The translations under genes were made by a program, and so were the position numbers. This document shows positions 25,450 through 60,999 of a stretch of DNA of 64,000 bases, in pieces. Origin of the DNA: Ascidiella aspersa (Eukaryota). A model generated the notes under the pieces. The model did not search any database, was not told the DNA's origin, and worked only from the letters and a program-made list of their open reading frames with translations. How positions within the stretch are numbered: the stretch's first letter is position 1; each line of letters begins with the position of its first letter. The stretch spans positions 28,148,001 to 28,212,000 of the forward strand of contig OZ004612.1 of NCBI GenBank assembly GCA_963924565.1. The letters are read 5' to 3'.

Positions 25450-25959
25450 TTTATTCAGGTGAAAGTTTGGGCGAACAAATATACAGTTACTGAAAAGAAA
25501 CAAAAGACAAAAAAGTAAATGTACATTCGAAAAAATAGTGATAAATCAATCAAACAGTTTAGGGGTGTAATGTGGAGTTAATGTGGATAACATAAAATTC
25601 AAAGCGAAAAAGAAATAATGAATAAAACACCAAAGTTGAACATTGGTGTACTGAATTTCGTTTTTTTAAGTGTTCAAAAAATTAAAGCACAAAAAAAAAA
25701 CGTTTCCCAAACATGCAAATATAATAAATCAATGAAAAGAAACAAGTTTCAACAGAAATGAACGAATTGGAAATCATTTGAAAACAAAAAAACAAAAGAC
25801 TTGGACTCTGCGTGAAAAGTAAACGAAAATGAATGAAAAAATTGAAAATTTGTGTAATTTGAAGTTACCATAACGCCCTTTCCTGAATTTATCGTCTTCT
25901 TTGAGGTGTAAGACCAGTGGCTTGGTGTCTTCTGGCTGGAATGCGACCGCCTCGGCCCT
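25450..25959 (-). CDS. Probable terminal exon plus 3' UTR of a minus-strand gene, most simply WDR64-like; reading frame unresolved (phase 0 gives GRGGRIPARRHQATGLTPQRRR*)
   Basis: gttttgttacttAG acceptor, about 90 nt GC-richer coding-like segment, then a T-rich UTR-like tract and AATAAA (minus strand) at 25450-25455. Confidence 0.45.
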
Positions 25960-26245
25960 AAGTAACAAAACAATAATCGTCAGTTTTCGTATATAGTTAG
26001 CGCCAATGCGTACAAATTCAATCACAAATCTGAAATGCGACCGCCTCGGCCCTAAATAACAAAACAATAATCGTCAGTTTTCGTATATAGTTAGCGCCAA
26101 TGCGTACAAATTCAATCATAAATCTGAAATGCGACCGTCTCGGCCCTAAGTAACAAAACAATAATCGTCAGTTTTCGTATATAGTTAGCGCCAATGCGTA
26201 CAAATTCAATCATAAATCTGAAATGCGACCGCCCTAAATAACAAA
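25940..26245. repeat. 94-bp tandem repeat, about 3.2 copies, spanning a 3' splice site
   Basis: ATGCGACCG at 25941, 26035, 26129 and 26223; units nearly identical. Confidence 0.95.
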
Positions 26246-29200
26246 AGAGGAACCCTCAGTATTTCTTATAATAAGAGCTTATCAAATTGAATTGTTTATT
26301 ATTATTTGTTTACGCTTGAAGAAAAATAAAACTAGATTCTTGCATTTTATGTTGAATAGGCATATAACATAATAATCAACATTGCTTGTGTATACTGAAA
26401 TTACAAACACCAGAGGAGCTGCTTTTGATTATGCCTGGTAGCAACAGTTTATATATAGGTGTTCAGGTTTTCAAGTAAAACCATGCAGGCTGTCCTATTT
26501 TTTCTCACTATTTCCTATAGTTAGCACCAATGCGTACAAATTGAATTATAGCTTGTGAAGCTTCTTAAGCTATTAAACGACATTATGTATTAGGTTGAAG
26601 GACAAGATTCTGTTGTTGGAACACATACTAAGTCTAAATTGAAATGTTTAATAATATTTATTTTAAAACGGAATAAAAATAAACAGGCGAATTTTTTGTT
26701 GAATATTTATATAACATGTTCAGTTTTTAAGTAAAACAATATAAGATGTTCCTATTTTTTCACTTGGCAATTTTGAATTTATGTTTCAAACTGTTTAAAT
26801 AAATTTTTCACTCTAAAAATATGGCAACTTGTACATTTAAATCTCACGGCATTGTAACTCATGTGCATTGTTTTGTGGAAAAAGGCAAACTTAAGAGGAA
26901 TGGGTATTTTTTTTGCCTACCGTCAAGTTTACAATATTTATGTTAAAGAACAGTTTACCCATTTTGCACATTAACCTTTTATCTACGAAGGTAACTGCAA
27001 GTATTGTTCGCTTTACCTGAATAGCATCAAAATAAAAAGTTGGAAAGTTTTATCTTTTGTATGACTGATCTCGAAAATTTGAACAACGGTAAATCGCCTT
27101 CAATAGAGCTCATAATACCACGCAGAGTTCAATTTACCACGTGTTTTGAAGCCAATTGGGTGTGTGGGAAAGCATTCGCAGATTAGGAGTTTATTCAAAA
27201 CAGCGCTAATTGCTAATTGAACACTCTCTTCAAATCGAAGAAGAATCCTACAGGAAACTAACGCAAGGAAAAAACACGTTGTTTACTAATGTTTAGGTTG
27301 TAAAAGGGCGCCTAATCTAGCAATACCGTAGTACACAGTAATTAGATTTAATGTGAGAAAGCAAGGGGGCGGGGTTGTGGGCGTCAACATGAAACAAATA
27401 ACACTGTGTCGGCACAAATTGCCACCCACATACTACTGCGGCGTCTAATCACGATGACATATGCAAAGGCACAAAAGCTACTAAAACAGCGCTGTACGGG
27501 ACCCCTGCCCGAGCGGACAATGGTATATTTTGAGGAAAGCTAAAAGGGACTGGCCCGGTTTTTGTAAGTTGCTTGATTCGTTAACGAGGGAAACAAATAC
27601 CGAAAAACAAAATCGCGACATCATCGTGATTACTCGTTTTTATTGATAACAAACTTCTGCACAAAGGTTAAGTTCGTGGCAAACAATATGCTGTATATTC
27701 AAGTAGAATCAACGCAGCGATTTGCACACGTGGGTGGTATAGGCAACTACATCTTGGTAAAATTTGCGAGGTCATCGTGAAACACGATATTTTGCATCCT
27801 TTTTTTCGAAAAGCTACGCGGGGTAAATTTGAAGCAGGAAAAAAATTAGGGAATGTCTTTTTTTCTTCCGTTGATTGTCAAATCCGAATCTTGGTCGCGA
27901 AAAAACCTTTCGAGTTTTACCTAATGAATCATAACGATAAAAAGGAAAACGGACCTCTAAAGTTAAGCTTTCTTGGCCTAAGTAAACTAAATTGAACTAG
28001 ATGTAGCTCTTGTTAAGAGGTCGACTGAATTGTTACAGACAACATATTTATAATGCAATGAAAACGGGAATACCTATTGCAGGATAAACAATCAGATTCA
28101 ATAATATGTTTATGACTGGGTTTTAGACGGAAATGTTAAATATATATTTTAACTATGGCTAGATCTGAGACTGGAATTGTAATATAATTAATGCCAGTAA
28201 TCCGGTAATGATTTCGTTCGACACCGGAATTTTGATGTATATTTTAAAATTGGCGTGGTTAAACTTTAGGTCTAAGACTGAAATTAGGATTGAATTCATG
28301 CGCAAATGGCAATTCGACATAGAACTATAAATAAGCTAAAGATTAGAGGCATTTCAAGGTAATCTACATGTAGTAGCACTTTGTTAAAATGATAACGGAA
28401 TTGCAACAGGCAGTATACTATAACAGACACATATAACTCTAGCCATTTAAAACCATCAGTAGGATGATCACTTGACACATTTGGTCAACTGTATGGAAAC
28501 TATTACGTCACAATATAGCGCCGTGAAATAAACAGGAAGCTTTTCTAGAAGTTGTGCAACAAGGTATTATGACGTCATCTTCAAACAATGCTGCATTAAA
28601 AGGAAGGACACTTTGGGAGTTCGCCGTATTTTAATAAATGCTGATTAGACAAGACATTTGTAAAATGTCAAAATAGGAAAGACGCCAATAGAAAAACATC
28701 CCGATGAATGTTGTGCCCCTCTATTGTTAGTTACCAGTTAGAGTTAAGAGTATCCGGTTGGTGCATTGAATAGTATGCTGACGAATTCCATTGTTGCCCA
28801 ATTTTAGAGGTGGAAGTATTTCAGGTAGAAAGGGTTAACAAACTATTATATTTAGGGCGAGATTTAAAAACACGGAAGGAAGGCACGGTTAGACAGCTTT
28901 CCAATAAAAATGGTCCAAACCAGACCTAATAAACTAGATAACTAATTTGAAGACTTTCAACGAAAAGCTGATAATTAATTCGAAGCTTGTAAGAATGTTT
29001 TTTTTTGCTTTAATGTAATTTAATTGTGTACTTTAGTTTCACTCTAATTTCCTAAATCCCAACTTGCCCAAAGGCATTGGTTATAGGTCTTTTAGTCGGC
29101 ACGAGTTTTTAGCCGTGTGAATTTTCCAGCACGTAGCCAAAAGCATGTCAATTTTTGCCATTCATATTCTTTTGAGAATAAATTAAGATATAAACGGGAA

Positions 29201-29344
29201 GAATTAACTAAATGTAATGCTAGTTCGGTTTTGATTTGTAGGTATCGCGATGCCAACAATTCTAATCAAAAAGAATTCTACGCAGGAAAACTGAACCGTT
29301 GCAATCTTAATTATAATCTAATTGAGGAGGTTAAAAAATCTATT

Positions 29345-30929: not shown

Positions 30930-32505
30930 AATCAGTTACGGAAATTAAACTAAGAATTGGATCAACGAAAGGCGTTTAAAAAGAGGTTACCGGTTTTTCC
31001 TCCAGTTACAAAAGTCAATTACCGGCGTGTATTTAAAGTTGGTTTCAATATGACAACGTTAAATCCTTGCCCTTTATACTTTACATAGGAAACTATACGT
31101 AAGCAAAACTGCAAATCAAATAACGACAAGCGATTGAAAGAGATTATTAAATTTTCGTCCGGTCTTAAAAGACAATTTACCGGCGTAGATTTTAAAGTTG
31201 GTGTTAATACAACAAGCAGAATCCGGTCCCCTTACATCGCAAAAGCAAGCACGACAACAATTAAATTGATCTCTATTATTCAAAGTTATAAAAAAACTTT
31301 TTTTAAAACTATAGGCAACGTAAAACCTAGATCGAGGCTTCACACAATAAAGAATACCGAAGGAAGCGAAACAGCTAATCAAATTGATCACCTGCAATTG
31401 AAAAGTGATTACCTTATGCTCTTGTCAATTTTTTTGCAGTTTCTTAAGCACAATTACAGCTGTCTAGACTTTTTAACTTTACGTTTAAAGAACAAACGGC
31501 GTATATTTTAAACTTGAACAGTGTTGTTACCTGTCGCCTTACTTTAAAAACGAAAAAAAAAACAGCAAATTAAACTGACGAAAAGTAATTGAATAGATAT
31601 TACCGGATTTCATGTTGCTATTAGTCAAAGTTACAAAAAAAGTCAGCAACAGGTGTAGATTTTAAACTTGAACATCGTTATATTCAGTCCATGGCTTTAC
31701 GCAATAAGAAATAACGCAAGAAGCGAATCGGCAAATCAAATCAAAGACCAGCGATTGAAAATATATTACCGGATTTTGGGTTGTTCTTTGTCAATATTTT
31801 CAGTTTCTAAAGCACAACTACGCTTATCTAAATTTTTTTCAATTTACTTTCAAAGAATAACCGGTGTATATTTTAAACTTGGAAACGTCACATCCGTTAG
31901 CCGCACATTTAAAAAGAAATTAAAAGCGGAAAAGAAACAGCAAATTAAACTGACGAAAAGTAATTGAATAGATATTACCGGATTTCATGTCTTTATTAGT
32001 CAAAGTTACAAAAAAAGTCAGCAACAGGTATAGATTTTAAACTTGAACATTGTATTGGATTCACACAATAAAGAATAACGACGCAAGCGAAACAGCAAAT
32101 TAAATTAACGACCAGCGATTGAAAAGTGATTACCGGATTTGTAGTTGCTTTCTGTCAAGATTTTTTCCAGTTTCTAAAGCCCTTTTACCCCGGTCTAGGC
32201 TATTGAAATATAATTACAAGGAATTACCAGTGTATATTTTAAACTTGGACCACGTTATATCCGCTGGCCTTGCATTTAAAACAAAATTTACAGGCGGAAA
32301 CGAAACAGCAAATTAAACTGACGAAAAGTCATTAAAAAGATATTACCGGATTTTATGTCGCTATTAATAAAACAAAGTTAAAAAGCAGGAACATTTTAAA
32401 CATGGAGAACGTGAAATCCTGTCCTCGGCTTTATACAATAAAGAATAACGACGGAAGCGGAACAGCAAATCAAATTAACGACCAACGATTGAAAGGGAAT
32501 TACAG
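30930..32505. repeat. Degenerate higher-order tandem array (about 370-bp period with shorter subunits)
   Basis: AACAGCAAATTAAACTGACGAAAAG at 31561, 31936 and 32304; recurrent TTACCGG...TTTTAAACTTG blocks. Confidence 0.85.
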
Positions 32506-35500: not shown

Positions 35501-36331
35501 GAGCATTACAGTAGGCCTATAGCAAGAAAGAGACACATAAGTGGATGCTTCCGTTGTCAAATATCGACTTACAAAACACAACAAATCCTCAACAGAACCC
35601 AGACATAAACCATGGGTTGGAAAGGGCTTGAAAACTTTCCATTGCAGAGAGTGTTTCAGCTATTGTAATTGCAAAGAGAGCGCATCAAAAGCCAAGCTAC
35701 CCTTCAAAATAAACCTGAAATTCTGCGAATGACGAGAAAAAGGCAGCAGCAGTCACGAGACGGTTACGTCAGGGGAAAACCCCACTCGGTAAATCCCCGC
35801 CCGGTACGGCAGTTCAACTCGACAACATTGGAGCGCCTTGAGCGCGAATGAATCATCTTTTAAAATGAATCACCTAAATTTGTTGCATCAGAGTTAAGCG
35901 GTGATGAAACAAAGGTGTTTAAACGGCCTTCACGGGCATCGCACACACACATTAGAAAAATGCACAGACGCGCGTGCAAAAATGCTGCGCCTTATCTTAA
36001 AAGAAACGTGGCGCATTTCAGGCGAGGATGACAAATTGACGCGATTTGAAAAGGCACGAGAAACTTATTAGGATGGTGCAAGCGTTTTGCTGAAGATAAA
36101 GACTACTCAAACACGAAAAACGTGATCTGTTTTCCACTCAGAGTTCAAACCGCGGTTGAAGTGTTCGCCACAACACAGTTTATTATTTTGTCAACAGAAA
36201 TCCATATGACATTGCACTTGATTAACAGCAACATTAATGACAATCTTGACAGCTTTACAGAATCCTGAAAAAAATTGGTACCTCATTCGTGCTTCAAACT
36301 ATGGTTAGCCAATAGCCAGGTCAATTTACAC

Positions 36332-36670
36332 CAGGGGTTCTTAAACTTTTTTTTACCGCGGACACCTAAAATTTTTTTTTGCTTTGCATGGACCCCGGTA
36401 GACAAGAAATCCTCCAAAATGGCGTCATAAATTGATGTCACAATACAAATAGACTTCAGGACTCTGATATTTCGGTCCGAAAAATTTGTAAGTTAAATGG
36501 AGTCTAACTATACATTCAGTCCAAAACCGTTTAATTTTTAATTAAAGTGTTTTCTTTTAAACATTAATTACTTTTAAGTATACACTAGTTTTTAATTATG
36601 CTTTCAAGGACCCCCAAAACTAGTTCACGGACCACCAGGGGGTCCATGGACCCTAGTTTAAGAACCCCTG
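36332..36670. mobile_element. Non-autonomous hAT MITE, family A, copy 1
   Basis: TIR CAGGGGTTCTTAAACT / AGTTTAAGAACCCCTG; full-length similarity to the copies at 47064 and 58948; TSD degenerate. Confidence 0.85.
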
Positions 36671-39600
36671 GTTTAGGCTCAATATACAACGAAAAAATAT
36701 ATGAAAAGAATTGCGGCGCATTTTTGTTTTTGTGCTTCCAACTAAATTCGAATGAAAAGAAACGGACTTTTTCCATGCTTTGCAAAGCATAGCGCGTGAA
36801 GTCACTAACAGGGGCCCCATAGAACGAAACACACCCAATCAATAGAATATTCCACTATAAACGAAAACTGAATCTGAATTATTCTCGCAATGTATTTTAT
36901 TTTTGAAAAATTGATTAGTATAAGTCAAGATTTAATACCAAGCACATACAGTGGTAATAAAAAAATAAGACTCACTTGGTGGCTAATAGGTTGGTGACCG
37001 TACATATAGATACGAACGATAAACAATCAAGTTACACCTGTACACCTGTAGAAGTCTATTTTACATCTTAATATGGACTGATAACCAGGTTGCAACAATT
37101 AATGTTTACGCCAACAAAATCTCGCGACTCTCTCAGTGATAACACAACACTACACCAAATAAACCCTGGTGTCTGAAAGGTGTATTTTGCCTTCGGTTTG
37201 TTTGGATAGTCGACAAATTTGATGTACGGCAACGCTAATCGATTTCCAATGTGAACACGTTAATGCGGTGAAGAACGGCAGATTATTTGTGGACTGCTAT
37301 AAAGGCTTTCGGTAGCGCAAACTGTTTCATATGATAGCCACAGCCGAGTACGAATTACTTTGCCTGCAGAAATAACTGCAACATGAACGAATACAGTTTT
37401 ATCACAGTTAGAAGAATATGTGTTTCAAAACTTCACTTTCGGATGCCATTTATTTTTCTAAAATCACAAAAGCTTGTCATTTTTATAAGCACGGTTTGCC
37501 AACGAAGTTGTTTTACTAGCAATTCACTACCTTGTTAAACGAGCAAACCAGACTATTTCCACTTGAGTGAGACATAAATGAAATAATGATAATAACACTG
37601 TAAAGACCCGGTTTGAATTAGGATTCAAAATGTTGCAGTTTTATTTAACAAAATTCCGGATTGGAGGCCGGACAAAGGTCAAGAGTTTATACACTACATT
37701 GTTGTAGAAACGTGCTTTCGATTTTCGTTGACGTTAAGAGATTCAAAATGTCAACAAACCAATGCGGTTACAAAGGGCAGTTATTAGTGGTCAGCTATAA
37801 AGGCTTTTGACAAAGCAAACGCAGTCATTTGGCTGCTGCAACTGTTGGTGAGTACGTGTTGCTTTAGCTGCAAACGGAACGCAGAGTTGTACGATTGAAT
37901 CTAACGGTTATATGAGATGCCTACTAAGTTTTGCCAATTCTAAAACAGCGAACTCTATTTGACACTAATACTAATGAAAGGAATGTGTTTAATTTAGTCA
38001 AATTCCAACTTATTGCACCTTAAGTTTGTTTATTAATTATGCTTTTATTCTTAGGCTGATTTCATACCAACATTACTGAATAAAAAGTAGTCGATTTTGG
38101 GAATACAATTTGCCAACATTGGGAACAAATTGACATATTTGTTTTAAACTTATCTACCTTGCCAAATAACAAACCCTTTGATACAAACGCAAGGTTTAAA
38201 CGCCTATTGCATATATATTTTAATCGCCGTAATGTGCAGGTGAATTGACCAAGTGGAGAACACGCTTTTAATTAGCAAAAATCCTGCTATGAAGCCTCTG
38301 TTCCATTGCGTCAAACGAAGAGTACATATTGCAAACTACATTCACGGAAAGAGGGCCACTTTCCTTATCGGCAAACTACATTGTCAAGATCGGACAAGAT
38401 TCCCAAACTTCTACGTCATTCGAGTTCACTAATAGGAACGAACATAAACCATGTTTACTTGCCGGGTCAAAAATAAACCCGTAATCCCCAAACACGTTAC
38501 TCAGAGCATGGCAAGAATAATCTCCCAGCCGCTAAATATATCACGATTTATTGGTTGAAGTCCAACAAGTGTTTTCCTTTCAAACTTTGTGACGATTTTG
38601 AGAGCTCCGCGCCGGCAACTGTTATTGACTGACACCCCCCACCGAGCATTTTATGAGGGGGCATAAATAGAAATCAAACAAGTGGGCGTGTGTTTTGTGA
38701 CGTCAAAGTACGTCACGGGGGCGACAAGGAATGACTAAAAAAGGGGGTAGGGGAGGAAAAGTTGATTAAAATCGCTACAAAGGTGCTCAAACAGCGTCAT
38801 TGGGTGTTTGTTTAAGGAATCAATACATTTGAGATTAATATAGATTGCGATCGTCGGCCTCATCGGCTCTGTATACATTGAGTAAACAATGGTGCTCGAA
38901 TAGCAAGAATTGACACCCGAAATAGACGGGTTTGACTTTGCAAAGCCGCCCGCTGCAATGCAATAACCCACTACGTTCATTGGGAGGTTTAAAATAGCGT
39001 CCTAAACGCAAAAGTTACTGAACTTTTTATCTGTGTGACATTAGCGTGTTTAAATCGTAGTTCCAAGCGGGGTAAAATGCACCAATTTCGGAAGAGTTTG
39101 TATAACATATGAAGTCATGTAACCGGCTGGCTTTACACGCGGCCCATATGTACTGTGTTTAAATCAGGGCAGAAACAAAACTAAAAATCGTATATCACTA
39201 AGCGTAGCGATAAGGATGGTGACGTCATAAAGATTTAAATTCGAGATTAATATAGATTGCCGTCCTCGGCTCTGCGCACATTGAGTAAACATTGCTGCTA
39301 GATTAGCAAGAATTGGCACCACAAATAGATGGGTTTGACTTTGCAAAGCTACAGTACAATGCAATAACGCACGGTGGGGCGTAAAAGGTTTGTGATGCTT
39401 TGATTTACTTCTTCGCCACATCAACTGATGATGATACGAGTTCATTTTTTTCGACAAGAGTAATAATTAAAACTTCACGTTTGTTTTTTTGTCCCAGCCT
39501 ACTTTGGCATCACACCTAAATTTCAATGCTCGAGGCAAGCGCACACTTTAGCGTTTTAGGAGTAGAATCCATTACAAAGATGGCCGCTGCAATGCAATAG

Positions 39601-46802: not shown

Positions 46803-46925
46803 CTTGGCGGCTCCAGTTTTTCCACCCTGAGCCGTCTTGCCGCTTTCATTTCCCTCATCACCCCACCCACTCATGTAACCCATGTCGGGTTTGGGTTGGA
46901 GGGGCGGGGTAGTCACCCGGTAAAC
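46803..46925 (-). CDS. WDR64: WDR64-like exon (VYRVTTPPLQPKPDMGY...GAAK)
   Basis: ctttttgtccAG acceptor, AAG|GTAAAA donor; LP|VYRV continuity with the previous exon. Confidence 0.8.
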
Positions 46926-49900
46926 CTGGACAAAAAGTCGACAGTCAATATTTTAAATTTCGGCGTAAAAACAAAAAACCTTTAATATGAAGTTGTTTGT
47001 AATAATAAAATTCAAGTGATCGTGCTTTGGGTGTTTTCCACATGTGGGTCGTTTGATTTAGTTCAGGGTTTTTTTAACTTTTTTTACCGCGGACCACTAA
47101 AATTTTTCTTGGCCTCGCGTGGACCACAATAGGCAATTTGTTTTAAATGACGTCATGAATTTACGTCACAATACAAATAGACTTCATAAGTCTGCTGATT
47201 TCGGTCCAAAAATGTGAAACTGAAATGGAGTCTTAATGCATTCAGTGCAATACCTTATTTTTTATTAAACTGTTGTGTTTGATAAATTGATTACTTCTTA
47301 ATTATACACTAATATTTCAATTAGGCCTTCATGGACCGCCTAAAACTAAGTGACGGACCCCTAAGGGGTCCATGGACCCCAGTTTAAGAACCCCTGATTT
47401 AGTTGGTCGCCGACTACAGTAGTTCACGTGGTTAGATATACTGAAATGGTTCGCAAAGTTTGTCCAAAATTTTAAAAAAATGTGTAACAATTATTGATAT
47501 GTCAAGTTTATTTTCTGAAATTAAGTCCTTCCGTCGCTTTGTCTTAACCAAGTAGCACATGCATGGAACCAAAATAAAAAAAGAGATTAATTGGCGCTCT
47601 TATTGCATCCGATTGACGTAGACGAATTTCCAAACAAGGTGATTGGAGTATGCATTACATGATTAACTGATCAAAAGTGTTTGTGTATGCCAGGTATATA
47701 AAATATCGTCGGTATCAGCCAATAAAGTAGTGATATCGGTTGATCTCTGATTGAAACGCCTAGCATAATATTTGCAAATTATATGGATTTGTGTTCTCAG
47801 GGCTTCACATGGTGAATGGGGCGTGATTTGCGTGATTTTCGTGATTTTCTAAAGGAAACAGCTATTTAACCGGATCGCCATTTTACGATTGCAGCATTAC
47901 GTGATTATTAATTGATTTGGGCTAGGGTTGACGCTCGCCTTTGGGTTTGAGTGGTGGTAGTATTAGATTGAATTTTCCGAGCTTTGCATAAGTTCAATTC
48001 TTTTTTCCGAAATTGATTTAAATTATACTTTGTTAGCCGGGTAAATAGCCTCAGAAGGTGTATATATGCTATTTGACCGGATCGCTCTTTAACCTTTGCA
48101 CCCGTTGGTGGTTATGTGGATTTGTACTACTTTGGCGTCCGGGTGAATAGCCTCTTTCTCTAAATCGGGTGTGGCTTTCAGTAAAGTTTTAGATCAACTA
48201 TGAAGTCATTTACAGCGCCAACAGAAGGTTGGGTAACAATAATTGAAAACCGCAAAATACACCTTGACTTTACGTAGTGTCATAAGGTAATCATGTTACC
48301 GTCTGTTTGCTATGACAACAATTATACATTTCTTCGTATTCTGCCAAACTTTAAACAGGAGTGTTTAAACAGCGGATTGGTAAATATCTTTGTCAAACAG
48401 CTCTTAGATCGCAAAGAACAACAAGTGACGCTAAGCGTAATATTTACGTGATTGAGAAATGTTTGGCACCTGGTCACATCGATCAGTGCAGTATTTCTTA
48501 ACCTTTTTTCGCGGTGACCTAAATATTAAGCATTAGTGCAACAGCGCCTCGTTTAAACTGATGTTTTTTATTGTTTTTTTTTTAAGTAATATATTTTAAG
48601 TTTATGACATGTATGTATTATTTATTGCTAAGTGCGTAGCTGTGTTCAATTTACTTCATTTTCTCTTCAAAAAACTTTTGTAAGCGAGCAAAACGTAAGA
48701 CCGTATCATTAAGATGTTTCAATTTATTTAATATTAGCTATATATTCGTATTGATTCCGCAATTCTCTCAAATTTCGGGAAAATCATTTTCAGAACGAAT
48801 CTCAATAAATCGAACTATGTGAAGAAATGAATTCGGCGACCCATAGGTAGAGAAACGCTGGTTTATGGTAGAAATTTTGTTCTTTTAATTACAGGCTTTA
48901 AAAGAGAAGTGTGGTATGGTTAAGGAAGTAGCAGAGAATTTTTTTTCCTTATTTCAAAAATGTTCAGATTTAAAACTATAATTATAACTTTTGTCTTTTT
49001 AAGGATATTTGTTGTGACGACACTCAATTTTCAAGCTTGGATGCAAGAAAATTACAAAACAAAAAGTCGATTTCTCACCGGCAAATGATGGAATATGGCT
49101 CCCGTGTCCGAGTCCACTGGTTTGTCGCTCTCCAGAGCGCTTTTATCCGCCTATGACGTCACAAATAGTGTTTGTTATTTGCAATGCTTTAAAATGTAGA
49201 CATGGTTTACTGGTTTAATGCGCAAATGATACGGTCGTCGCACCCTTCGTGCCTCTAATTGCGACAAACAACAATGATGATATTTTTAAATGAATAGGTT
49301 CGACTTTTGGCTTGGTTTAAAGGCGACAATAATATGCCAAAACGTTTTACTTACAACTTTATGGTTTCAAAGCACAACAGTGAATTGTCTTTTGTAAAAC
49401 GAAAGATAGTCAGAATAGTTTAATGTGTTCGGATAGTCTTGCAACTTTTTACGGATAAATAAAGTGGGTCGGTCTTAATACCTGTATGATCTTTCCTTAT
49501 GAAGCCGTAAAACGATAGGGGCAAAAGACAGTATAAATGTCATGGTCATTGGTCAACACAATTAAAACCATTTTTTCTTTGCTCTTTGAGGCTTAAAACA
49601 CGGTAACTTAATCTGGGCATAAAGCGAAATACTAAAAAACATAACTTTTTCAAAGATTTCCAATATGTACATGAAATTATAACTTTCAAAGACTTTAAAA
49701 ATTTGTGGTAAACCTGTTATGTATCGGCTCTGATTTGAAATTATCTGACATCGCTATAGTTACACTTGCGTAAGAATGCTTAAGTTTCCTACCTTAGGTT
49801 TGACCAAAGCACTGAAGAACTTCTTATTTCTGATCTCGATAATGTTCAGTGAGCTCTGCTGATTGGCTGGCACCGTGTGACGTTGTGCTACGTCACGTGT

Positions 49901-52900
49901 GTAGGCAGATCGTCTAAAAGGGCGCCACCTGGCGTGTAAAATAAGGGTAAATTTTTAGGCAACATAAGACAACAGAAGTGGGTTGGTACATTTAATAAGT
50001 TGTCCTATCTCGAATGGTTTTTGCATACAAACAAAACAAAAACAAAAAAAGTTGCATAAAAAATTAAAGGGATTATTGAGAAAGTGTTTCATGAAAATAA
50101 AATGCGTTCAATATATGTTTAGGGATGTCCGATTGAATCGAAACCGAATTTCAGCTATAAATTGCAATCAAAAGCAGATATTCGGATGCTAAGTTTATCA
50201 AAAAAATTGTCATGGTTAAAAAATTCGTGGTAGCTAAACTTATTAACGCAAAGTTATTTGAGGTATTATACCGTGAAATAAATACCTCTTCGACGTTTAT
50301 TTTGTTGCTTGTTTGACCACGGTAATGACGTCATTTGCTATGATATCGCATCAAAACGCTAAATTTTGTCTAACATATCGGTATCGGAATAAAAAGTTAA
50401 GCATCAAACCCCAAAATATGTGAACAATTTTTTTCAAAGAACCAATCCCTATACTATCAGGGTTGGGCTTAAGCACTCGCCCGCTCGCCAATGCGAGTGC
50501 AAATCGCTCCGGGCGAGTGCTGATTGACACCCACTCGCCCGACTGGCGAGTGGCTCAGGCGAGAAATTTAATTAGTTGGTGCAGGAGAGCTTGCGTTAAG
50601 CGCCAATATTATGCGAACCATTACTTGATCCACTTATTTCCTTAAACACTAAGACGCAAATACATTCAACACTACACAAATAATAAGGTTAATCGAGGTC
50701 ACGAAGGAAATTATAAGCAATTGCTGCAGTTTTCGGGCAACAATAAGTGCGAATGCAAATGTCTTATATTATTTGTAAGCAGTGTTTTTTAAGATGTTTT
50801 GAGGGACCGAAACGGCCCACTGAACACTACGGTATTTCAAAATACCGCCTATTGTGCAACTACAGCCGAGAATTAGTAATTAGTCTACAGTATGTAAGTA
50901 TGTTGTTGCGATCTCTTAAGTTCATAGCGGTCAACCAAGCCAAAGCTTAAAAAATAAATGACTGTCTGTAACATTTTATATGCCAATTATGTTAAGATAC
51001 GACTCAAAACTATTGCGGACGCCCATTGAAAACTGTAACGACCCACTATAGGGCGTCGTGCAGCACAGAACCTCTGGTGCATGTGGTTGTTAACTGTGCG
51101 AAAGAATGGTTTGGTTCGGTGAAACAAACGCCTTTCAAGCACAGAAAAACCACAATAGAAAAAAAGCTAGAGCGATGTCGTTTTTAAAAAACTGGAAAAC
51201 AGGCAGGCTACTAAATTGTCAGTGCTATTTTTTCACTAAAAATTGTAACAAATATTTCGGATAAAAAACATTCCTAAGCGTAACCTGCTTTGTGTGTCCT
51301 TAATTCGTTCATCCATGCATGGAAATAAACGACCAGACTTTTATAAAACTAATGTTTACGTATAGAAACCATAAGAAAGGGTAACGATAACACAAGAAAT
51401 GACCGCGCTATGACGTAAATGGGCAGACTGCGTGCCAACAAATTTGGCGAGTGTTATTTCGTCCGGGCGAGTGCAGATTGATAGCTGTAAATTTTAGCTT
51501 AGGAATAACCCTGACTATAAAGCCTTCGTGACAGTAAATAAGCTTTTTTAATATGTCGTCGGCATATTAAAGAAAAACATATATAAACATCAGGAATGTG
51601 TAACCGGAGTATATATTTACGAAAATACCGCACATGTGAATAATTAATAATTGTACATTACGCACGGATTTTTAATGTAGCTTGATAATAACAATAAATC
51701 CCAAAGCCCTAAAGTTCGGGTAAATCGACATCATCTTGATAAACTGTGTCCCGTATTTTATAAGTGAGGTTATTATATTTCAGTCACATTTAACTGAATG
51801 ATGATACAAGTGTGTATCGAAACGTCTTTATCAAGATGACGTCGATTTACTCGACCTTTTTGGCTTGGAGAGTGATAAACTTGCTCTTTCAAAAAGGCTC
51901 TTGATGTATAGCTATGTGTCATAGAAGCCTACTTAATACATCACGAGTTAGTTATAAAGCATTTTGTCACATAAAAAGGAAATCTCTCAAGGACGTATTT
52001 CGACACTTGGTTATTTCAAGGCGCTCTCTACGTCACAATAGCGCTCTATGTATTACGTCAAATGCGGCTTAAAGTCGTTGCGACATACACAAGCTACAAA
52101 ACACCGGATGGGAAAGTCCGAGTTCTTTGACGAACCAGCGATCGTCACATTTTTAACACACCGGTGCTATGGGAAAACTGATATCAATGTAACTAGGGTC
52201 CGATGGAAGATAATACTATTTTTTTGACAAATCTATTTTTTGACAGCTTTTACTATTTAGGCAAAAAATGTTAACATCTTGTGATTTTCACTATGTTTTC
52301 ATCCTTTGAAAGGAATTTATTTTAAATTAGACAACTAGCCGATATTCTGGGCAATATGCTTTTTATTGGCCTTTTAATGCGTCACGTAAAGTCTCTTAAA
52401 TTTGAAGTTTAACCCATTTTAACCGAACAAACGCATTTTTCCGCTCCTATACATTTCGCAAACGAGTTATCTTAAAAACAACACGTTTTTATAGATTAAT
52501 TTTTATGATGTAACTTTGTGATGCCATGCCTGAAAAATGTCGCTTAGGAAATATGTGAATAATTCAATTTAAGCTGATTGATAATAATTAACCAAACTCA
52601 CTAAAAATTGTAATGTACCAGTGGGTCCGTCCAGTGGTGTATGGATTTGTTCGCGAGATGCTCACAAAACTCAAATTTGGGTGGCGCTTAAAAAAGGTAG
52701 GTAACCACTGCTTTGGATGAACAGGGGAAAAAGTACCACCACGTTCAGTTCATAAAAAAGAGACTTAATCTAAAAAACATATCAGGCCATTTGTATTAAC
52801 CTTGCTCCAGATGGAGAGGTAAAATGTTACGGAGCCAGTTATTGAAGGGTAGAACTGCAGACCTAGTGAGTGCATTGGCCAGAAACAATAGCAGGTTGCC

Positions 52901-55900
52901 GTCGTATTGACTTGCCGCATTCCGCAGCCAGGACGTAATTGTGCGACCACGTGTTGCAAAGTACCCCGCCGTTGTTCAAGCGCGCGCTTGTGAGTGGGAG
53001 GGGGGACGTTTCGGGGTTTCTGCGGCGCTAAAAATACATTGTCGTCACTCGCTACGTCACAATGGCGCCGGGTCGTGAACTCTTGACTGTTTGGAACATA
53101 TTAGGTTTAGGAGAGTGGAATATTTTAAAATATTTCAAAGCCTTTATGCCATTGTGAAGTCGTGTTTGAAATTGTTGTTTATACGCTTTGTAAAAAAATG
53201 TTTATTTCAAAGCCTTTATGCCTTTAAGCTAAAACTCTTTCTGAAATAACGAATCTCCCACAGATAATAAAATGTAAAAGATAGATTCTTGCTTTCGTGT
53301 CAGACAATCTTAAGATCGGTAAAGTCGTGTTTGAATTTATTGTATAAACATTAAACACTTTGCATCAACTTGGAAGTAAAATTGTCGAAGGTTGTTGTTA
53401 ATCTGAAGTACAGAACAATATATTATAAAAAATGTTCATTTCAAGTCATGCTTATACCTGCATTTGTATGGGTTTTGATAGTTGTCGAAAAAATGTTCAT
53501 ATTAAATTTGTCAATTCTTTACACAAAACAAATACCCAAGTGCCAAGTCCATACAGAAAAAGCACACATTTCTAAAGAATCATTTATAATTTAACAAAAC
53601 CATTTCTACCAATGCATTGTATTTTTTAATGTTTCGTCTAGGTTTTTGGAAAACTCTATAACCAAATCCTACGTAAACCGGTATTGCAAACGATTAATTC
53701 TAACTAATAGGAATGTACTATTATGGCACGAAAATATCAAGCCGTCTGCCAAAGATAATCCACTTTATCTGACAACACTTTCGTGATTCTTAGCACATTT
53801 TTTTCCTAGATTACGAGATTGCGCATTTTTCATTAAACTGTTAGCCAACTCTGTCCGAAAATGCTCCCTTTGGCATTTCAATTAGTGTTAATTAGTGTTT
53901 TTTCTAAACATACACATTTTGTCACCAGTTTTGCAAAGGTCGTATCCATTTATAGGAAGTTATACTTTCACAGATGAATCCTAACAAAGGACCATCAGAT
54001 ACTATAACGCAAACAGTATATCGAGTGTCACTTGGAAATTCCAGCGTGTTTGTTCAAGATCATAATTCAAAAAAAAGTAACCAAGCACGGCCCATTGTCT
54101 GTGACTGTGACGTCGACAGTACCATTGTGTAACCTCGAACGGGAAAACAAAGGACTTTCAAACCTTAATATAAACTCACCTGTCAGCGTCAAAAACCAGC
54201 GGGTAGTCGTATTTCTTGAGCTGGGGCTTGCGCCGATTGGATCGGACATTTACGGGGTTGAGGGGTCCCTCTGTGATGTCATAGGGGAGCACGGGGCTCG
54301 AGGGGAGAGAGGGGTTGCTGGAAACGTGCCAGATGCGGTGCTGGCCGAAGTAGCCGACGTAGTGGCCGCGATGGGGGTACCAAAGCCTGGGTAAGGGGTC
54401 AATTGTTAGATTTCCAATACACTGAATTATGTAGACCTGTTAGTAATTGGTTACTTTGAAAAGAGCAACTTGACAATTTTCTGGGTTTTTGTTAAATGAT
54501 ACGAAGTGCTATCTTTCAACGCTGATTAGCAAAATGTAGTCTTCAAATAATTAAGTTTTTATGTTCACTTTAAAGCAAATTTTAGTCAACTCGAGATCTG
54601 ATTATCCATCAATTGATCAAAACTTTATTATTTTTTAAAGGAATAATCCGATACCGACTTAATATACGCATTTTAACAAAAATAGTTTGCGATATTCAAG
54701 TTAAATTCCTAACATAGAAGTAAGTTAACAACTTAGGTAACCAAACTTTTTAGCGCTAAAGCTAATTTCAGTTTGTTAACCTCAAAAATAACCCTTAGAG
54801 ATTGAAATGTAATCCAGTTTGGCTATTTGACCATAGTAATAACGCAACATGGTATCTAACCTACGCACATACGTACGTATACGCACCTTACGGATTTGTC
54901 CGTGGAAAATAAATCAAGTAAGATACAACCGTAGTACGTACAGTACGTACGTATACGGACCTTAGAATTCCGTCGGTGTAAAAAGTATCAAATTATATAC
55001 ATACATAAAGTTCTAACCTACGCACATACGTACGTATACGCACATTACGGATCCATCGATGGGAAAAACTTAAATACATCCGTAGTACAAAGCAACACGC
55101 ACAAACGTACGTATACGCACCTTACTGAACGGTCAGTGGAAAACTATAAAGCTAAACACCTTCTTAGTACAAAGCACCACGTATATACGTACGTACGAAT
55201 CCGTCGGTAAAAAAATCAAGTTTTTAGAAACCAAAATCAAGCTATATTCATCCGTAAAGTTTTAACCTACGCACATACGTACGTATACGCACCTTACGGA
55301 TCCGTCAGTGGATGCGGTGATGAGCGTACGTGTTGCGTTTACGTACGTAACGTCGACCACCTTGGTGAGGTGCGCCCTCCAGCACACGATTTGCTTGACC
55401 AGTTCGGACCGCGCCTGGGGGGCCAATGCCGCTGGGGGGCGCTGCAGGAACTCGGACACGTCCCAAACTGTGACGTAACCCTCTGGAAACGTGACGTAAA
55501 GTATTTTGAACCTGACGTTGTTGTTTGTGCCGATCATAACAAATGTTTAAGGAAATTTGAGGTTAGAATAAGACACATTTGGGTAATCTACATATTTAGC
55601 ATGATTGTATCGTTTATTTCGTTTGGTGGCATTTTGGTGGCTCCCTCAGTCAGATAAAAGAAAAAAATAATTCAGTAGCGCCACCTAGTGATGGCAACAA
55701 TTCCGACTGGATTTAGATTTCATATTCGAATTTTTTTTTAACTCTAAGTCACAGGTCGGGAACCTTTAGCATTGAAAGAGCCATTTGGTCTCGTTTGCCT
55801 AAAAATAAAACCTACTCGGAGTCACAACACGAAATTGTCTGTAAGTTAACATAGACTTATTTATTTATTTATTTATTCACAATATGTTTTTCAAATGAGC

Positions 55901-58900
55901 TGTCTTTCTCAGAATCACGGGAGCCAGTGCACACAGACGAAGGAGGAGCCTGAGGTTGCAATGCAATGCATTATGCTTTTCAGAAATCGCCTCGGGTGAT
56001 AACAACGATACGTATTGGCCATTTAAACGAAATCATACCAAAATAAGTGGACTATTATTTTTAAATAGTAGTACTCTTAGGTTATTTACGAACGTATTGG
56101 GGGATTTAAGTTCATTTCAAAACGAGTCACGTACGCTACAGTAATGACACTGCCTTGAAAACAAAGCAACGCGAAACGAAAAACGTCAATCCGCAAAAAA
56201 GTTTATTGAACACTTTCGCTGTTAAGCGACCTGGATGGGACGTCGAGACTAAAACACAATAGCCGTATTTGTTTCGATTGATATCACTCCTGGCGGCAAA
56301 AGTTTGAATATATTCGAACTACTTACTGGTATCAGCCACGATCAGTTGACATGCGAGCTCATCACAACATACGGAAGTTACGGGAGATAACACTCGTGTC
56401 ATCGGATTTAGGCTGCACAGAAGTTCGCCTGATGTCGACCACAATCTGTGTGAAAATTAGCGAAATCGGAGTAAATGTATAAGGAAAAATGTGGAAGTTA
56501 AACAGCTAAAAATTGTAACACAAACAGGGAAGATATATAATACGAATTTTGTTCCGACACCATAGAAGAAAATCAAAGTCAAAACAGAAGTAAACTTTCT
56601 CTTTATTTAACATAAATATTTAGTCCAAGTCTAACTACAGCTTTTATTCATTATGCTTTTTTTACAAAAAGTTTTTAACAAAATGCAAAATACTTAATTC
56701 ACAAACCACAATTTTCAGATAAAAATAAAACATATATTTCGCCAAACAGACATCCTCATTTTTTCGACAGCATAACAAAGGCTTAATCAAATAGTTAACG
56801 TATAAGTGATAAAACAACCAAATGTAGTCTTAACAACAAACCCGTAGAAAAAAATGATGTTTGATAATGTTTAGAACGTAAAGCAAGATAAATTATAAAA
56901 TATTATTTATCGAAATTATTTATAGTGTGAAACATTTAGGGCAAAAATACGTCATCACTACCTGACGAAGGTGTCTTGATGACAAGAGGCGATCACAGGT
57001 GGAAACCTCACTTCCACCATCTTGATTGGTTCGCTGTCGATTCCGTAATCCACCTTTCGCTCATCGGAACCCGAGCCCTCATCCGACGAGCCGTCGTGCG
57101 AACCCTGTGACGTCATAAGGAGTTTTTTTGTAAAATGCGAACATGAAAGTCAATAAATGATAAAAAAAATAGACACCAAAAGCATACTACAAAAATATCC
57201 TTGCTATATACAAAAATTAATTTCCAAAAGTTTAAACGTTCTACAAACCCAGCTGTGCGCTACGCAAAAGAGGTGGACAAGTCGAAAATCAATCAAAACC
57301 GATTTGCCTCATCATAAACTTGAACTATATTCACACAACACAGACAGATTGAGCAAGCATTGTCGTATGGTTGTTTCTCGACTCGCTCCTCTCTGAGCCT
57401 ATGTAGCTCAGTTGGTAGAGCGACGGTCCCGGCTTGGCCAGAGGTATAAGTTCGAACCTTACTGCAGGCTAGTTGTTTTCCTAGTCTGGCCTGTTTGCAT
57501 CATTGACCGACGATTACGGCTTTCCGTATCATTAGTACACGGTCCCGGCTTGACCGAAGGTCGTGAGTTCGAACCTCACTGCAGGCTAGTTGTTTTTCTA
57601 GCCTGCCCTGCTTGCATCATAGATCAACAGATTCGGTGAAGAGTCTGCACTGGCTTTCGGTGTACTATATTCACACAACTAAGGATGTCCAATACTTGAC
57701 ATTTTATTCTGACACCCGATATTCTGGACAAAAAGTAGCGAGATCAGATACCAAATGACGTCATGACTTCAACTATGATAGAACTTAATCAATGTTAAGA
57801 GCTTGACACGTTTGCATCGGCAAGTGCTTGCGCCATCTACTCACCTCGAAGTCAAGATCAACTTCTTCCGACGGATCGTCCTCCTCTTTAGCCCCTCCAT
57901 TGTCCCCCGTTTCTGCTGCTGCTGCTCCCACTTCCTCCTTGGCATCTTTATCGTTTTCTTCTTCCTATATGTTAAAGACGCACCAATTTTTAGTGTTGAG
58001 ATGCCAATGCATCAGTGAAACTTCTAGCTTAATTTATTAAACGGTAGCTTCACACGTTTCAAAATCGGCCCGTTTAGCGTATCCCGGAGCCCAGGGGTAG
58101 CCAAACTCATTACATAAAGTGACAGACACCTGTAAGCAGACATGGACAACTAGATTTATTTTATTGAATCCCATATAGAAGTAGGGAGCAGTTTGAACGT
58201 TTCGAAAACCTTTTTATTCAATTTCAATTCTGTTGAAAATGAAGAACATTTTTACTACGTCTTGCTAGTACTACAGCCTCCAACCATTAGTTCTGCTTTA
58301 TTTTAGCTTTTCAAAATGTAATTATGATTTTAAATTCCAGTTTAGATTCTGTTTTCTAAGAATTCAGTAATTCTAATTCTAATATAATTTGGAAAAACTA
58401 AAAAGAATTTAATTTTAAAAAGCTAATATAAATCTAGCTGTTTAAGTCTTTTCCCGATCTTCATAAAACCAAGGCAAACAACTTCAAACCTTATCTGCTC
58501 CCGACTCCAAATCCTCTTCCTCAGGGTCGATGAGTCCCTCCTCGATCATCCTTTTCCTCTTCAGCTTCCTTCTTCTCTTAACCTCCTCCGGATCGGGCCG
58601 GAAGATTCGGTGAGCGAGGAGAGCGACGTCGTTAATACGATGAGGGAAGAGCTCCTTGGATCGGTGACGATGGCTGTCGTAGCTACTCGCCAACTCCGAT
58701 TTGGACAACTCGAATCTGAAAGACGTATTGGATGTCTTTATGTTTTATGTTGTTTTTCTATTCAATCGAATAGTCAACTTTGTTAAGGCTTTGGTAGCTA
58801 CTCGCCGACTCTGATTTCGACAACTCGAACCTGTAAAAACATAAGACAATGTTTTTGTTTGTCGACTACTGCCAGAAACGAGTTTTTTCTTAAATGTGCA

Positions 58901-60999
58901 GAGTCGAGTAGCTATGGGAATTACAGTACAAAGCATAGGTTTTAGGCCAGGGTTCTTAAACTGGGGTCCATGGACCCCTTGGGGTCCGTGAACTAGTTTT
59001 AGGGGGTCCGTGAAGGTCTATTTGAAATATTAATGCCTATTTAAAAAGTAATCAATTTTTCTAAGAAAATAGTTTAATTAAAAATAAAACGTTTTTGCAC
59101 TGAATGTATTTAGACCCTATTTTCCTTTCACATTTTGTGGCCCAAAACTGTACATTTCTAAAGTCTATTTGTATTGTGACGTCATTTTTAAAAAATTCTT
59201 GCTTACCGTGGTCCATGCGAAGCAAAAAAAGTTTTTAGGGGTCCGCGGTGAAAACAGTTTAAGAACCCCTGTTTTAGGCAAATAACACGTCAACTGGGAT
59301 TTTAACAATTCGTATCTGCGAACCTAGATTGATATTTATTTACTTTATGATTTAAACGGGCCAAACAAGTGTTCAAACTTTTATTGTTACATTTTTTTGG
59401 TTTTATAGGATGTCGTAGCTAATGGCAGACTCGAACTGGGACAACTGAAAGCTTCCAGCAACCACTAACGATAGGAATTTTAATTGTTTAGCTAAGGTTT
59501 TTGTTAGGATATTTTTTTAATCGTATGACTTGTTCAAACAAGGACAACAACAAAAACGTTCAATTAGTTTTAAATGCTACACGTGACTTAACTTGTATTA
59601 CAAGACTTACTCGAAACAAATCATTCCTGATAATTGCTGATTCAGACTTGTGTAATATCAGAACAGTGCATCCCTTTAGTCTAAAATCTCAATTGAACAA
59701 GGAACGGAAACTTTGTAATTAACTTATGGGCAACTCAAACTTTCTAACTCTAGAAACAGACAAAGGATAAAAACAGCGAAAGACTTACACGTCTTTTACA
59801 ACGCATTGGTCGCGATCCCACAAGATGATATTTCCGTTCGAGCATCCAGTTATGACGCAACAAGGCAGTTCCGCTTCGTTGCACAGCGTGCAGCACGTGA
59901 TCTCGTTGCGTAGCAACACGTCTTCCTATAAAAACGAGATTGCGGAGTCACTTAATGTGCAGTGGGTGTTTTTTATTGATTTTCAAACTTATGATCATAT
60001 AATATGGAAGGGCGAAGTAGAAAATATCAAACAATAAGATAAAAGCCAGATTTAATGTGTCCAGTTTACTACACTTTTAATTTTTCCCTCATTTATTTTA
60101 TCGTTTGTCTGATCGATTTTATTTTAACGCTTCATTAGTCTATTATATGTCAATGGTTGGCACATAAAGTCAAAAGTGAATGCTTTAAATACTTTAAAAT
60201 CACAATTTTGGTCAAGGCGAATTAAGAAAAACACAATGCGGAGTTATCACAATGCAATAGCCCTTGGGTTAAATTTCTACTGAAGTGATTTTGAAAATTG
60301 AAGAAGTACTTTTTTAATTTTTGAGTTGCTAATTAAACCACTGACAAGATGGCCAGAAAATATAGTGAATTGTGTAGAGGGATTCGAAACCACAAGAACA
60401 GAACTAGCGTATAAACACCAAGAAAACATGAAAAATTAAAGAAAAATAGGTGTGGTTCAAACCTTTAACCTAGGAAAACTAACTATAAAACTTAGTTGTA
60501 GATTTGTGCATCTTAAAGAGTGGATTGTGTTGTACATCGTAAAAGTGTCAGTAACTTGGTTATGCTCTTAAAAGTAAGTGAACATATGCCACTGGTCGGA
60601 ATGTAATCGTCTGGCAATTGTTACTTATACCAGCGTGGTTCACCATGACCGACTTCAGCTAAACTTGCCAATTTCGTCGAATCCGCGAGTCCATCTCCGA
60701 CTCTACAGCTTACAGTATATTCCACCCATTTATTGATCAGTCAATCGATTTTAAACCAAACTGTATTATAAACATCCACCAGTTTTTGCAAGTTGCTAAA
60801 CACTTGCCAAGAATATCGGTGCGTTCCATACATCCAAGCAACACATTCGCCAAACGCGCAAAATGAAGTTTCAACTACAACTATATGCTCCAGCTGTGCT
60901 CACCTTGCGTGGTATGACGTCATCACCGTCGTCATCAACGAGAGTTTTCCCGCTTTGCTCTTCCCTGTCACCGGCTTCACTCCCCACCGGGCTGTAAAT
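46803..60999 (-). CDS. WDR64: WD repeat-containing protein 64-like, 3' portion; 11 exons: 60999-60904, 59925-59789, 58715-58490, 57964-57845, 57104-56962, 56445-56327, 55482-55293, 54386-54180, 49928-49793, 49150-49079, 46925-46803 (5' exons not found in the window; 3' end unresolved)
   Basis: GT-AG junctions with consistent phases. WD40 motifs (VITGCSNGNIILWD, GYVTVWD, WRAHLTKVVDV..LITASTDGSVRLW). The C-terminal series GHYVGYFGQ / LPYDITE / KYDYPLVFD..RW / KFFSALVKPK / GAIFHHLPVY matches my recollection of vertebrate WDR64. Confidence 0.8.
47064..47396. mobile_element. Non-autonomous hAT MITE, family A, copy 2
   Basis: Same TIRs (left one diverged); perfect 8-bp TSD ATTTAGTT. Confidence 0.9.
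47850..48160. repeat. Nested inverted-repeat (foldback) element
   Basis: GCTATTT(A/G)ACCGGATCGC twice forward and CCGGGT(A/G)AATAGCCTC twice in inverted orientation. Confidence 0.55.
48489..48860. mobile_element. Degenerate hAT-like MITE
   Basis: CAGTATTTCTTAACC...GGTAGAGAAACGCTG imperfect TIRs with GGCGACCC subterminal motif. Confidence 0.45.
49079..49150 (-). CDS. WDR64: WDR64-like exon (ADKSALESDKPVDSDTGAIFHHLP)
   Basis: tgacgtcatAG acceptor, CCG|GTGAGA donor, 72 nt. Confidence 0.85.
49793..49928 (-). CDS. WDR64: WDR64-like exon (WRPFRRSAY...KKFFSALVKPK)
   Basis: ttttacacgccAG acceptor, AAG|GTAGGA donor, phase 2-0. Confidence 0.85.
50458..51513. mobile_element. About 1.05-kb non-autonomous hAT-like element with 5-bp TSD
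   Basis: Imperfect TIR CAGGGTTnnnCYTAAGC at both ends, subterminal CTCGCC/GGCGAG repeats, ACTAT duplicated at both flanks. Confidence 0.7.
51700..51868. mobile_element. Palindromic MITE-like element (family D)
   Basis: Long inverted arms GGGTAAATCGACATCATCTTGATAAA / TTTATCAAGATGACGTCGATTTACTCG; related copy at about 3724-3800. Confidence 0.65.
54180..54386 (-). CDS. WDR64: WDR64-like exon (LWYPHRGHYVGYFGQ...KYDYPLVFDADR)
   Basis: cttacccAG acceptor, AG|GTGAGT donor; WDR64-type C-terminal motifs. Confidence 0.9.
54857..55310. repeat. Degenerate tandem repeat (about 75-90 bp, about 6 copies) derived from a 5' splice junction
   Basis: Repeats of CCTACGCACATACGTACGTATACGCACCTTACGGATCCGTCAGTGGA. 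Confidence 0.9.
55293..55482 (-). CDS. WDR64: WDR64-like exon (KGYVTVWDVSEF...LITASTDGSVR)
   Basis: tttccAG acceptor, AG|GTGCGT donor; classic WD40 text. Confidence 0.92.
56327..56445 (-). CDS. WDR64: WDR64-like exon (LWSTSGELLC...QLIVADT)
   Basis: cacacAG acceptor, A|GTAAGT donor; continues a WD repeat. Confidence 0.85.
56962..57104 (-). CDS. WDR64: WDR64-like exon (GSHDGSSDEG...PPVIASCHQDTFVR)
   Basis: tgacgtcacAG acceptor, AG|GTAGTG donor. Confidence 0.85.
57340..57663 (+). mobile_element. Dimeric tRNA-like (SINE-like) insertion flanked by the 16-bp direct repeat ACTATATTCACACAAC
   Basis: Two tRNA-like units (about 57397-57470 and 57531-57587). A box TAGCTCAGTTGG in the first unit, B boxes GTTCGAACC in both. 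Identical 16-mers at 57324-57339 and 57664-57679. Confidence 0.75.
57845..57964 (-). CDS. WDR64: WDR64-like acidic exon (EEENDKDAKEE...VDLDFE)
   Basis: atatAG acceptor, GAG|GTGAGT donor, 120 nt. Confidence 0.8.
58490..58715 (-). CDS. WDR64: WDR64-like exon (FELSKSELASSY...EEDLESGADK)
   Basis: tctttcAG acceptor, AAG|GTTTGA donor; phases fit both neighbours. Confidence 0.85.
58948..59271. mobile_element. Non-autonomous hAT MITE, family A, copy 3 (opposite orientation)
   Basis: Same TIRs; perfect 8-bp TSD TTTTAGGC. Confidence 0.9.
59789..59925 (-). CDS. WDR64: WDR64-like exon (WD40: EITCCTLC...VITGCSNGNIILWDRD)
   Basis: tttttatAG acceptor, GT|GTAAGT donor, WD dipeptide. Confidence 0.9.
60904..60999 (-). 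CDS. WDR64: WDR64-like exon (IYSPVGSEAGDREEQSGKTLVDDDGDDVIPRK)
   Basis: ctcacAG acceptor, AAG|GTGAGC donor, 96 nt, phase 0-0. Confidence 0.75.

What the first reader, a model, noticed from the sequence alone, without database searches (positions are those of the whole stretch)
25940..59455. Recurrent tandem amplification of exon-intron junctions on the minus strand
At three places (25.9-26.2, 54.9-55.3 and 58.7-59.5 kb) the repeated unit is centred on a splice junction. Each unit carries 20-40 nt of exon plus the adjacent intron signal, and the copies are pushed into the intron. The introns therefore hold arrays of near-authentic decoy splice sites. Where the frame is known, using a decoy leads to a stop or frameshift. 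The duplications are seen directly. Whether this reflects a junction-biased duplication mechanism, a poison/decoy regulatory system or raw material for intron gain is inference, since the region is generally duplication-prone.
Basis: partly seen in the sequence, partly recalled or inferred. Interest (0 to 1): 0.7.

Follow-up and report, generated by a model that had tools for sequence, protein, structure and literature searches.

The report
Mirage splice-junction repeats in ascidian WDR64
A sea-squirt WD40-repeat gene has three exon borders copied in tandem into the neighbouring introns, a repeat type known from lancelets as a "mirage"; the one RNA-like data set examined splices at the real borders, so the copies are likely harmless leftovers, although duplications in this genome do end unusually often near exon edges.

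Summary
The three arrays are real (4, 6 and 4 copies). All lie in one minus-strand WDR64-like gene of an ascidian, and a fourth lies upstream in the same gene. They are "mirages", described in amphioxus, and match the human F7 VNTR; the scan found this kind before in other animals. Spliced contigs of one run use the exon-proximal site at all three places; contigs cannot exclude rare decoy use. The poison idea is not supported. About 96% of random intron extensions also break the frame, site 1 is the last exon, and decoys diverge as neutral copies of a frozen exon (third codon positions 18%, first and second 8%). In 1.98 Mb of the own genome, 11 of 710 predicted junctions carry a partial mirage (1.5%), no more than the intronic background (2.1%). 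However, duplication ends pile up 2.6-fold (bootstrap 1.8-3.6) from 65 nt inside the exon to 50 nt into the intron, and none lies deeper in exons. The pile-up is as strong for copies with little or no exon sequence, so it is not splice-site specific. Slower turnover near exons probably explains it; a mutational bias is not excluded.

The parts
25936..26270 (-). Site 1: acceptor mirage, 94-bp unit, three decoy acceptors (exon-like starts 26233, 26145, 26051) plus the used one
   Evidence: present in runs X1-X4
25440..25957 (-). Last exon of the WDR64-like gene: 22 codons, stop at 25891-25889, 3' UTR with AATAAA at 25455 (3' end approximate)
   Evidence: X3 loose end at 25959 equals the end of exon 46925-46803; 11 of 22 residues identical to the C-terminus of P0001
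25958..46802 (-). 20.8-kb last intron, holding several purely intronic local duplications
46803..46925 (-). Coding exon, donor partner of site 1
49079..49150 (-). Coding exon
49793..49928 (-). Coding exon
54180..54386 (-). Coding exon
   Evidence: X3 contig 23
54855..55312 (-). Site 2: donor mirage, used donor after 55293 plus five copies (55193 with donor deleted, 55121, 55044, 54961, 54887)
55293..55482 (-). Coding exon (WD40 repeat) whose donor is copied
   Evidence: length fits X3 contig 23
56327..56445 (-). Coding exon
56962..57104 (-). Coding exon
57845..57964 (-). Coding exon
58490..58715 (-). Coding exon whose acceptor is copied
   Evidence: X3 contig 23 piece begins at 58715
58672..59530 (-). 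Site 3: old acceptor mirage, period about 115-145 bp, decoys at 58830, 59315 and about 59450, each with about 30-45 nt of exon-like sequence
58948..59271 (.). Dispersed 324-bp element with an 8-bp target duplication, inserted into the site 3 array (hAT-type MITE by recalled criteria)
59789..59925 (-). Coding exon, donor partner of site 3
60904..60999 (-). Coding exon; the gene continues beyond the window in L002 and L003

Best explanation
These are mirage repeats: ordinary local tandem duplications that took in a splice junction and likely persist as neutral leftovers, because splicing keeps using the site next to the intact exon. Shown: the copies, the use of the exon-proximal site in one run's contigs, and a genome rich in 100-300 bp local duplications. 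Inferred: slippage or unequal crossing-over makes them; selection removes those that take more than about 65 nt of exon; exon definition picks the site nearest the exon; copies near exon edges last longer because one partner is frozen by selection and the flank is shielded from insertions, which would give the pile-up near exon edges.
For: Used sites are the last acceptor copy (sites 1, 3) and the first donor copy (site 2). At site 3 the decoy outscores the used site (8.1 against 4.1). Partial mirages at 11 of 710 predicted junctions outside the window, 1.5%, against 2.1% for intronic positions. Divergence in those 11: codon positions 1+2 17 of 213, position 3 19 of 105, ratio 2.3, close to the 2 expected when only the exon copy is constrained. 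No array end deeper than 65 nt in exons, 0 in 41.6 kb. Dispersed repeats cover 2.8% of intron positions 6-50 against 16-19% beyond 100. Decay seen: donor deleted in one copy, transposon inside site 3. The gene's span is 17% locally duplicated; 7% of 176 random loci reach that.
Against: The pile-up is 2.6-fold (1.8-3.6) and exceeds 2-fold in 91.5% of bootstraps, so a two-fold survival effect may not explain all of it. Near-junction duplications are not older than deep ones (33 against 46 events, p 0.81). Copies with at most 45 nt of exon: 7 of 273 top junctions against 1.9 expected (p 0.003). This gene has 4 in 55 junctions against about 1 expected (p 0.013-0.018 before correcting for having been picked). 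GT/AG is kept in 11 of 11 nearest decoys against 67-69% for controls; about 83% each is my expectation with one copy frozen, p about 0.13. RNA support is one run of contigs, which drop rare isoforms.
Confidence: 0.72

Rival explanations
1. Duplications arise more often near exon edges (a mutational bias, for example from chromatin or co-transcriptional events at exon borders); the products are still non-functional.
For: Array ends per kb: 0.41 at -65..-12, 0.66 at -11..+50, 0.21 at +51..+800; ratio 2.59, seen for acceptors (2.4) and donors (2.8) and in random loci alone (2.76); absent for low-score exons (0.88, 1.4) and shifted pseudo-junctions (0.28-1.43). No age difference.
Against: Among duplications at least 94% identical, 2 of 33 are near junctions and 5 of 46 deep, about 1.4-fold per kb, too few to decide. 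The whole exon side is not enriched (1.03, 0.49-1.73). Bins were chosen partly after seeing the data; exons are self-predicted. In introns under 1 kb the exon-edge ratio is 1.04.
Confidence: 0.2
2. The decoys form a regulated poison system that lowers gene output through NMD or swaps the C-terminal tail.
For: Several decoys score as well as or better than the used site. Use of those at sites 2 and 3 would give premature stops. Use at site 1 would replace a conserved 16-residue tail. A VNTR donor is used at ABCA7 (PMC5954066, passages).
Against: Only 4.2% of 20,229 random extensions stay open and in frame; 2 of 11 independent decoys do, so no excess of poison. Site 1 stops lie in the last exon, where junction-dependent NMD would not act (established knowledge). 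Neutral divergence, lost donor, no decoy joint in X3.
Confidence: 0.04
3. The arrays are intermediates of intron gain or junction sliding.
For: Model proposed for amphioxus mirages (PMC3087553, passages); tandem duplication is a recognised route (PMC3443670, passages).
Against: The exons match the Phallusia protein through all three sites with no added piece; intron parts of the units carry stops. Intron positions in relatives were not compared.
Confidence: 0.04

Closest known systems
Amphioxus 'mirages' (globins BflGb6 and BflGb9, Adh3, troponin C, PGBD5); PMC3087553 and PMC3902484, passages read; the original Adh3 paper was not held
   Same: Tandem copies spanning an exon-intron border, at both acceptors and donors, units of tens to about 160 bp, many but not all with AG/GT, no disturbance of normal splicing seen.
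   Different: Here a tunicate; four in one gene; oldest copies down to about 70% identity; background rate measured. Length instability between haplotypes was not shown here.
Human F7 intron 7 37-bp VNTR (PMC1557585, abstract and Discussion read)
   Same: First unit spans the donor; downstream pseudo-sites stay silent and the most upstream is used, as at site 2.
   Different: F7 units are identical and tested by mutation; site 2 units are diverged and untested. Sites 1 and 3 are acceptors.
Human ABCA7 intron 18 VNTR (PMC5954066, passages)
   Same: Repeat includes the donor; use of a copy gives a frameshift.
   Different: Decoy use was measured there; none was seen here. The ABCA7 unit starts at the GT and holds no exon.
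Internal tandem repeats at exon-intron boundaries in human segmental duplications (PMC2812944, first part of Results read)
   Same: Minisatellite-like units at boundaries that lengthen introns.
   Different: Found between paralogues; this gene is single-copy at the tested exon.

Membership tests
Mirage repeats | Tandem unit spans an exon-intron boundary of a real gene | tested here: met
Mirage repeats | Many but not all copies keep AG/GT | tested here: met
   site 1 3 of 3; site 2 4 of 5; site 3 AG clear in 2 of 3
Mirage repeats | Regular splicing is kept | tested here: met
   one run of contigs, X3; rare forms invisible
Mirage repeats | Copy number varies between haplotypes or cells | tested here: inconclusive
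   short-read contigs collapse the array
Regulated poison splicing (AS-NMD) | Measured use of the unproductive site, rising on NMD block | not testable with these tools
   no raw RNA reads listed
Regulated poison splicing (AS-NMD) | Premature stop upstream of a later junction | tested here: inconclusive
   met at sites 2 and 3, not at site 1; also the default for about 96% of random extensions
Regulated poison splicing (AS-NMD) | Purifying selection on the alternative segment | tested here: not met
   divergence fits a free copy; deletions and an insertion; no cross-species DNA comparison
Intron gain by tandem duplication | A new spliced intron between duplicated sites | tested here: not met
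   transcript and protein are colinear with P0001 at the three sites
WDR64-like WD40 proteins | Colinear homology to a protein so named | tested here: met
   76% identity in the tested exon, name as given by UniRef; exon-by-exon match; orthology not tested by a tree

The most novel reading that the evidence does not exclude
Short local duplications in this genome are generated preferentially within about 50 nt of exon edges, so the splicing architecture itself steers where DNA is duplicated and seeds decoy splice sites at 2-3% of junctions.
Probability: 0.15. Interest if true: 0.65.

Novelty: new member of a known kind. Interest (0 to 1): 0.3.

Why it matters
As a locus it is ordinary. It extends mirages to tunicates (no tunicate report found) and gives natural pairs in which a stronger-looking decoy loses to the exon-proximal site, a ready test of exon definition on the acceptor side. 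The more useful result is the first rough background: about 1.5-3% of junctions carry a mirage, the copied exon piece never exceeds 65 nt, and duplication ends crowd near exon edges. If that crowding is mutational it would link splicing architecture to where genomes duplicate; if it is survival it measures how far exon constraint shields flanking DNA.

Tried and rejected
No RNA holder was listed as such; X3 is treated as RNA only because its contigs join exons. One search was swamped by dispersed repeats, so joints at sites 2 and 3 were inferred from piece coordinates and exon lengths. Contig depths at site 1 (20.6 at the boundary, 8-12 in the intron) cannot measure decoy use or copy number and were not used. 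A strict ungapped test missed site 3, so gapped alignment was used. A site 1 frame suggested by my exon finder was rejected. Pfam scans of single exons did not run, so predicted exons have no Pfam check. One of 12 flagged junctions (L142) was a whole-exon repeat and was dropped; loci L142, L162, L002, L063 were left out of the end-density counts (710 to 672 junctions). The Adh3 mirage paper and Gao and Lynch 2009 were not held. Searches for a published enrichment test found none.

Full report
Gene. The minus strand from beyond 64000 to about 25440 is one WD40 gene. Its exons chain into an open frame and match, exon by exon, a protein that UniRef names WD repeat-containing protein 64-like of Phallusia mammillata, so the organism is an ascidian by inference. 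Run X3 holds a 1728-nt contig whose pieces begin at 58715 and, 572 letters later, at 54385; 572 equals the four exons between them. This fixes the used acceptor of site 3 and the used donor of site 2. At site 1 an X3 contig carries, behind 25959, the end of exon 46925-46803. Site 1 is thus the acceptor of the last exon after a 20.8-kb intron; its 22 codons match the Phallusia C-terminus (11 of 22).

Observation. Site 1 has three copies of a 94-bp unit at 97% and an older, partly deleted fourth. Site 2 has the used donor and five copies, one of which lost the donor. Site 3 has one 86% copy and two old ones, each above 500 of 500 shuffles, split by a dispersed element with an 8-bp target duplication. 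The site 2 stretch and the site 1 unit have no listed match elsewhere in the genome. The site 1 array is in all four runs laid, from two studies. A fourth case lies upstream in the same gene (L003:758).

Consequences of use. Site 2 extensions meet a stop within ten intron codons; decoys 58830 and 59315 lead to stops; site 1 decoys give a stop after 7-9 codons. This carries little information: 4.2% of 20,229 random extensions of 72-300 nt are open and in frame, and 2 of 11 independent decoys are. Site 1 stops are in the last exon, so junction-dependent NMD would not act (established knowledge). No contig joins to a decoy at site 1, but contigs drop rare forms.

Background test. I took 200 stretches of 9.9 kb from the own genome (180 evenly spread on nine large contigs, 20 beside the window), masked dispersed repeats and built a self-trained exon finder. 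Checks: consecutive exons agree in phase in 197 of 285 pairs against 14 of 41 on reversed DNA; linked exons at score 16 or more number 558 against 165 on reversed DNA, at 20 or more 390 against 74; 9 of 11 seed exons were recovered exactly, one miss being my 1-nt seed error, and these seeds began the training. The set is therefore imperfect. With the window left out, 12 of 710 junctions had a copy on the intron side, 11 after removing a whole-exon repeat, against 2.14% of intronic and 1.32% of non-exonic positions (p 0.52 and 0.41 for 12 of 710). Mirages are thus a routine feature here, with three in L121 alone. The window is itself duplication-rich: 12% covered, 17% over the gene, against a median of 1.1% and mean of 5.8% in 176 of 180 usable random loci.

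A real excess remains. The copied exon part was 12-65 nt in all 11 cases; parts of at most 45 nt occurred at 9 of 710 junctions (4.8 expected, p 0.057) and 7 of 273 top-scoring ones (1.9 expected, p 0.003). Counting array ends at 672 junctions, with weighting for room in the intron, gives 0 in 41.6 kb deeper than 65 nt in exons, 12 in 29.1 kb at -65..-12, 21 in 31.9 kb at -11..+50 and 46 in 220.3 kb at +51..+800; ratio 2.59, locus bootstrap 1.76-3.62. Low-score exons and shifted pseudo-junctions show no excess. The peak is highest on the intron side, where little or no exon sequence is copied, so it concerns exon edges and not splice sites as such. Bins were partly chosen after seeing the data.

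Mechanism. In the 11 independent cases divergence is 8.0% at codon positions 1+2, 18.1% at position 3, 10.5% in the splice core and 13.4% deeper. A ratio near 2 is what a frozen exon and a free copy give. The first 50 intron bases are also poor in dispersed repeats (2.8% against 16-19%), so turnover there is likely slower. I read the pile-up mainly as longer survival plus removal of copies with long exon parts. Against this, near and deep events do not differ in identity (p 0.81) and the ratio exceeds 2 in 91.5% of bootstraps, so a mutational bias stays open. Four cases in 55 junctions of this gene is p 0.013-0.018 for a gene chosen blind; it was chosen for this feature.

Known systems. PMC3087553 (passages) and PMC3902484 (passage) describe the same structure in amphioxus as mirages, at both borders, without disturbed splicing, and propose them as a route to intron gain. 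PMC1557585 (abstract and Discussion) shows for human F7 that the most upstream of identical donors wins. PMC5954066 (passages) shows use of a repeat donor at ABCA7. PMC2812944 (first part of Results) and PMC3443670 (passages) give context. I found no tunicate report and no enrichment test; the two most relevant older papers were not held, and no supplements were read. Earlier notes of this scan list mirages in urchins, annelids and vertebrates; I did not check them.

Verdict. Real, a new member of a known kind, most likely neutral. The one lead worth following is the crowding of duplication ends at exon edges. Interest 0.3.

Noticed in passing
L003:701-1254 (minus): Fourth mirage in the same gene: acceptor plus 58 nt of exon copied 480 nt upstream; 7 of 9 differences are at third codon positions, perhaps a remnant of a once-used duplicate exon.
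   Followed up: partly
L121:4252, 7418, 9169: Three mirages within 5 kb of another gene (two donors, one acceptor).
   Followed up: partly
L166:3976, L178:7060, L196:1932, L019:8825, L023:6186, L145:3389, L199:8015: Further mirages; L196 is a 100% identical 188-bp duplication; decoys at L178 and L145 would be open and in frame.
   Followed up: partly
L142:1600-2900: Tandem array of 69-nt predicted exons with their introns, period 150 bp, 93-96% identical; L162 has a whole-exon duplicate 617 bp apart.
   Followed up: no
window 58948-59271, 47056-47402, 36321-36677: Three copies of a high-copy element of about 330 bp; the first has an 8-bp target duplication (hAT-type MITE, label recalled).
   Followed up: partly
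window 30964-32503 and 44383-46555: Large, nested, purely intronic tandem duplications in the last intron.
   Followed up: partly
window 21094-25382 (plus): Cysteine-rich gene converging tail to tail; X3 contigs of the two 3' ends approach within about 50 bases near 25382-25435.
   Followed up: no
window 25930-25980: An X3 contig across the unspliced last acceptor has depth 20.6, near that of the spliced contig; last-intron retention or decoy use cannot be told from contigs.
   Followed up: no
window 55240-55300: The site 2 unit contains a self-complementary TACGTA run at the donor; the 11-nt deletion in one copy lies between CGTA repeats.
   Followed up: no
window 57893-57932: Dense differences between samples (10 listed in 40 nt) in the acidic low-complexity exon 57964-57845.
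   Followed up: no
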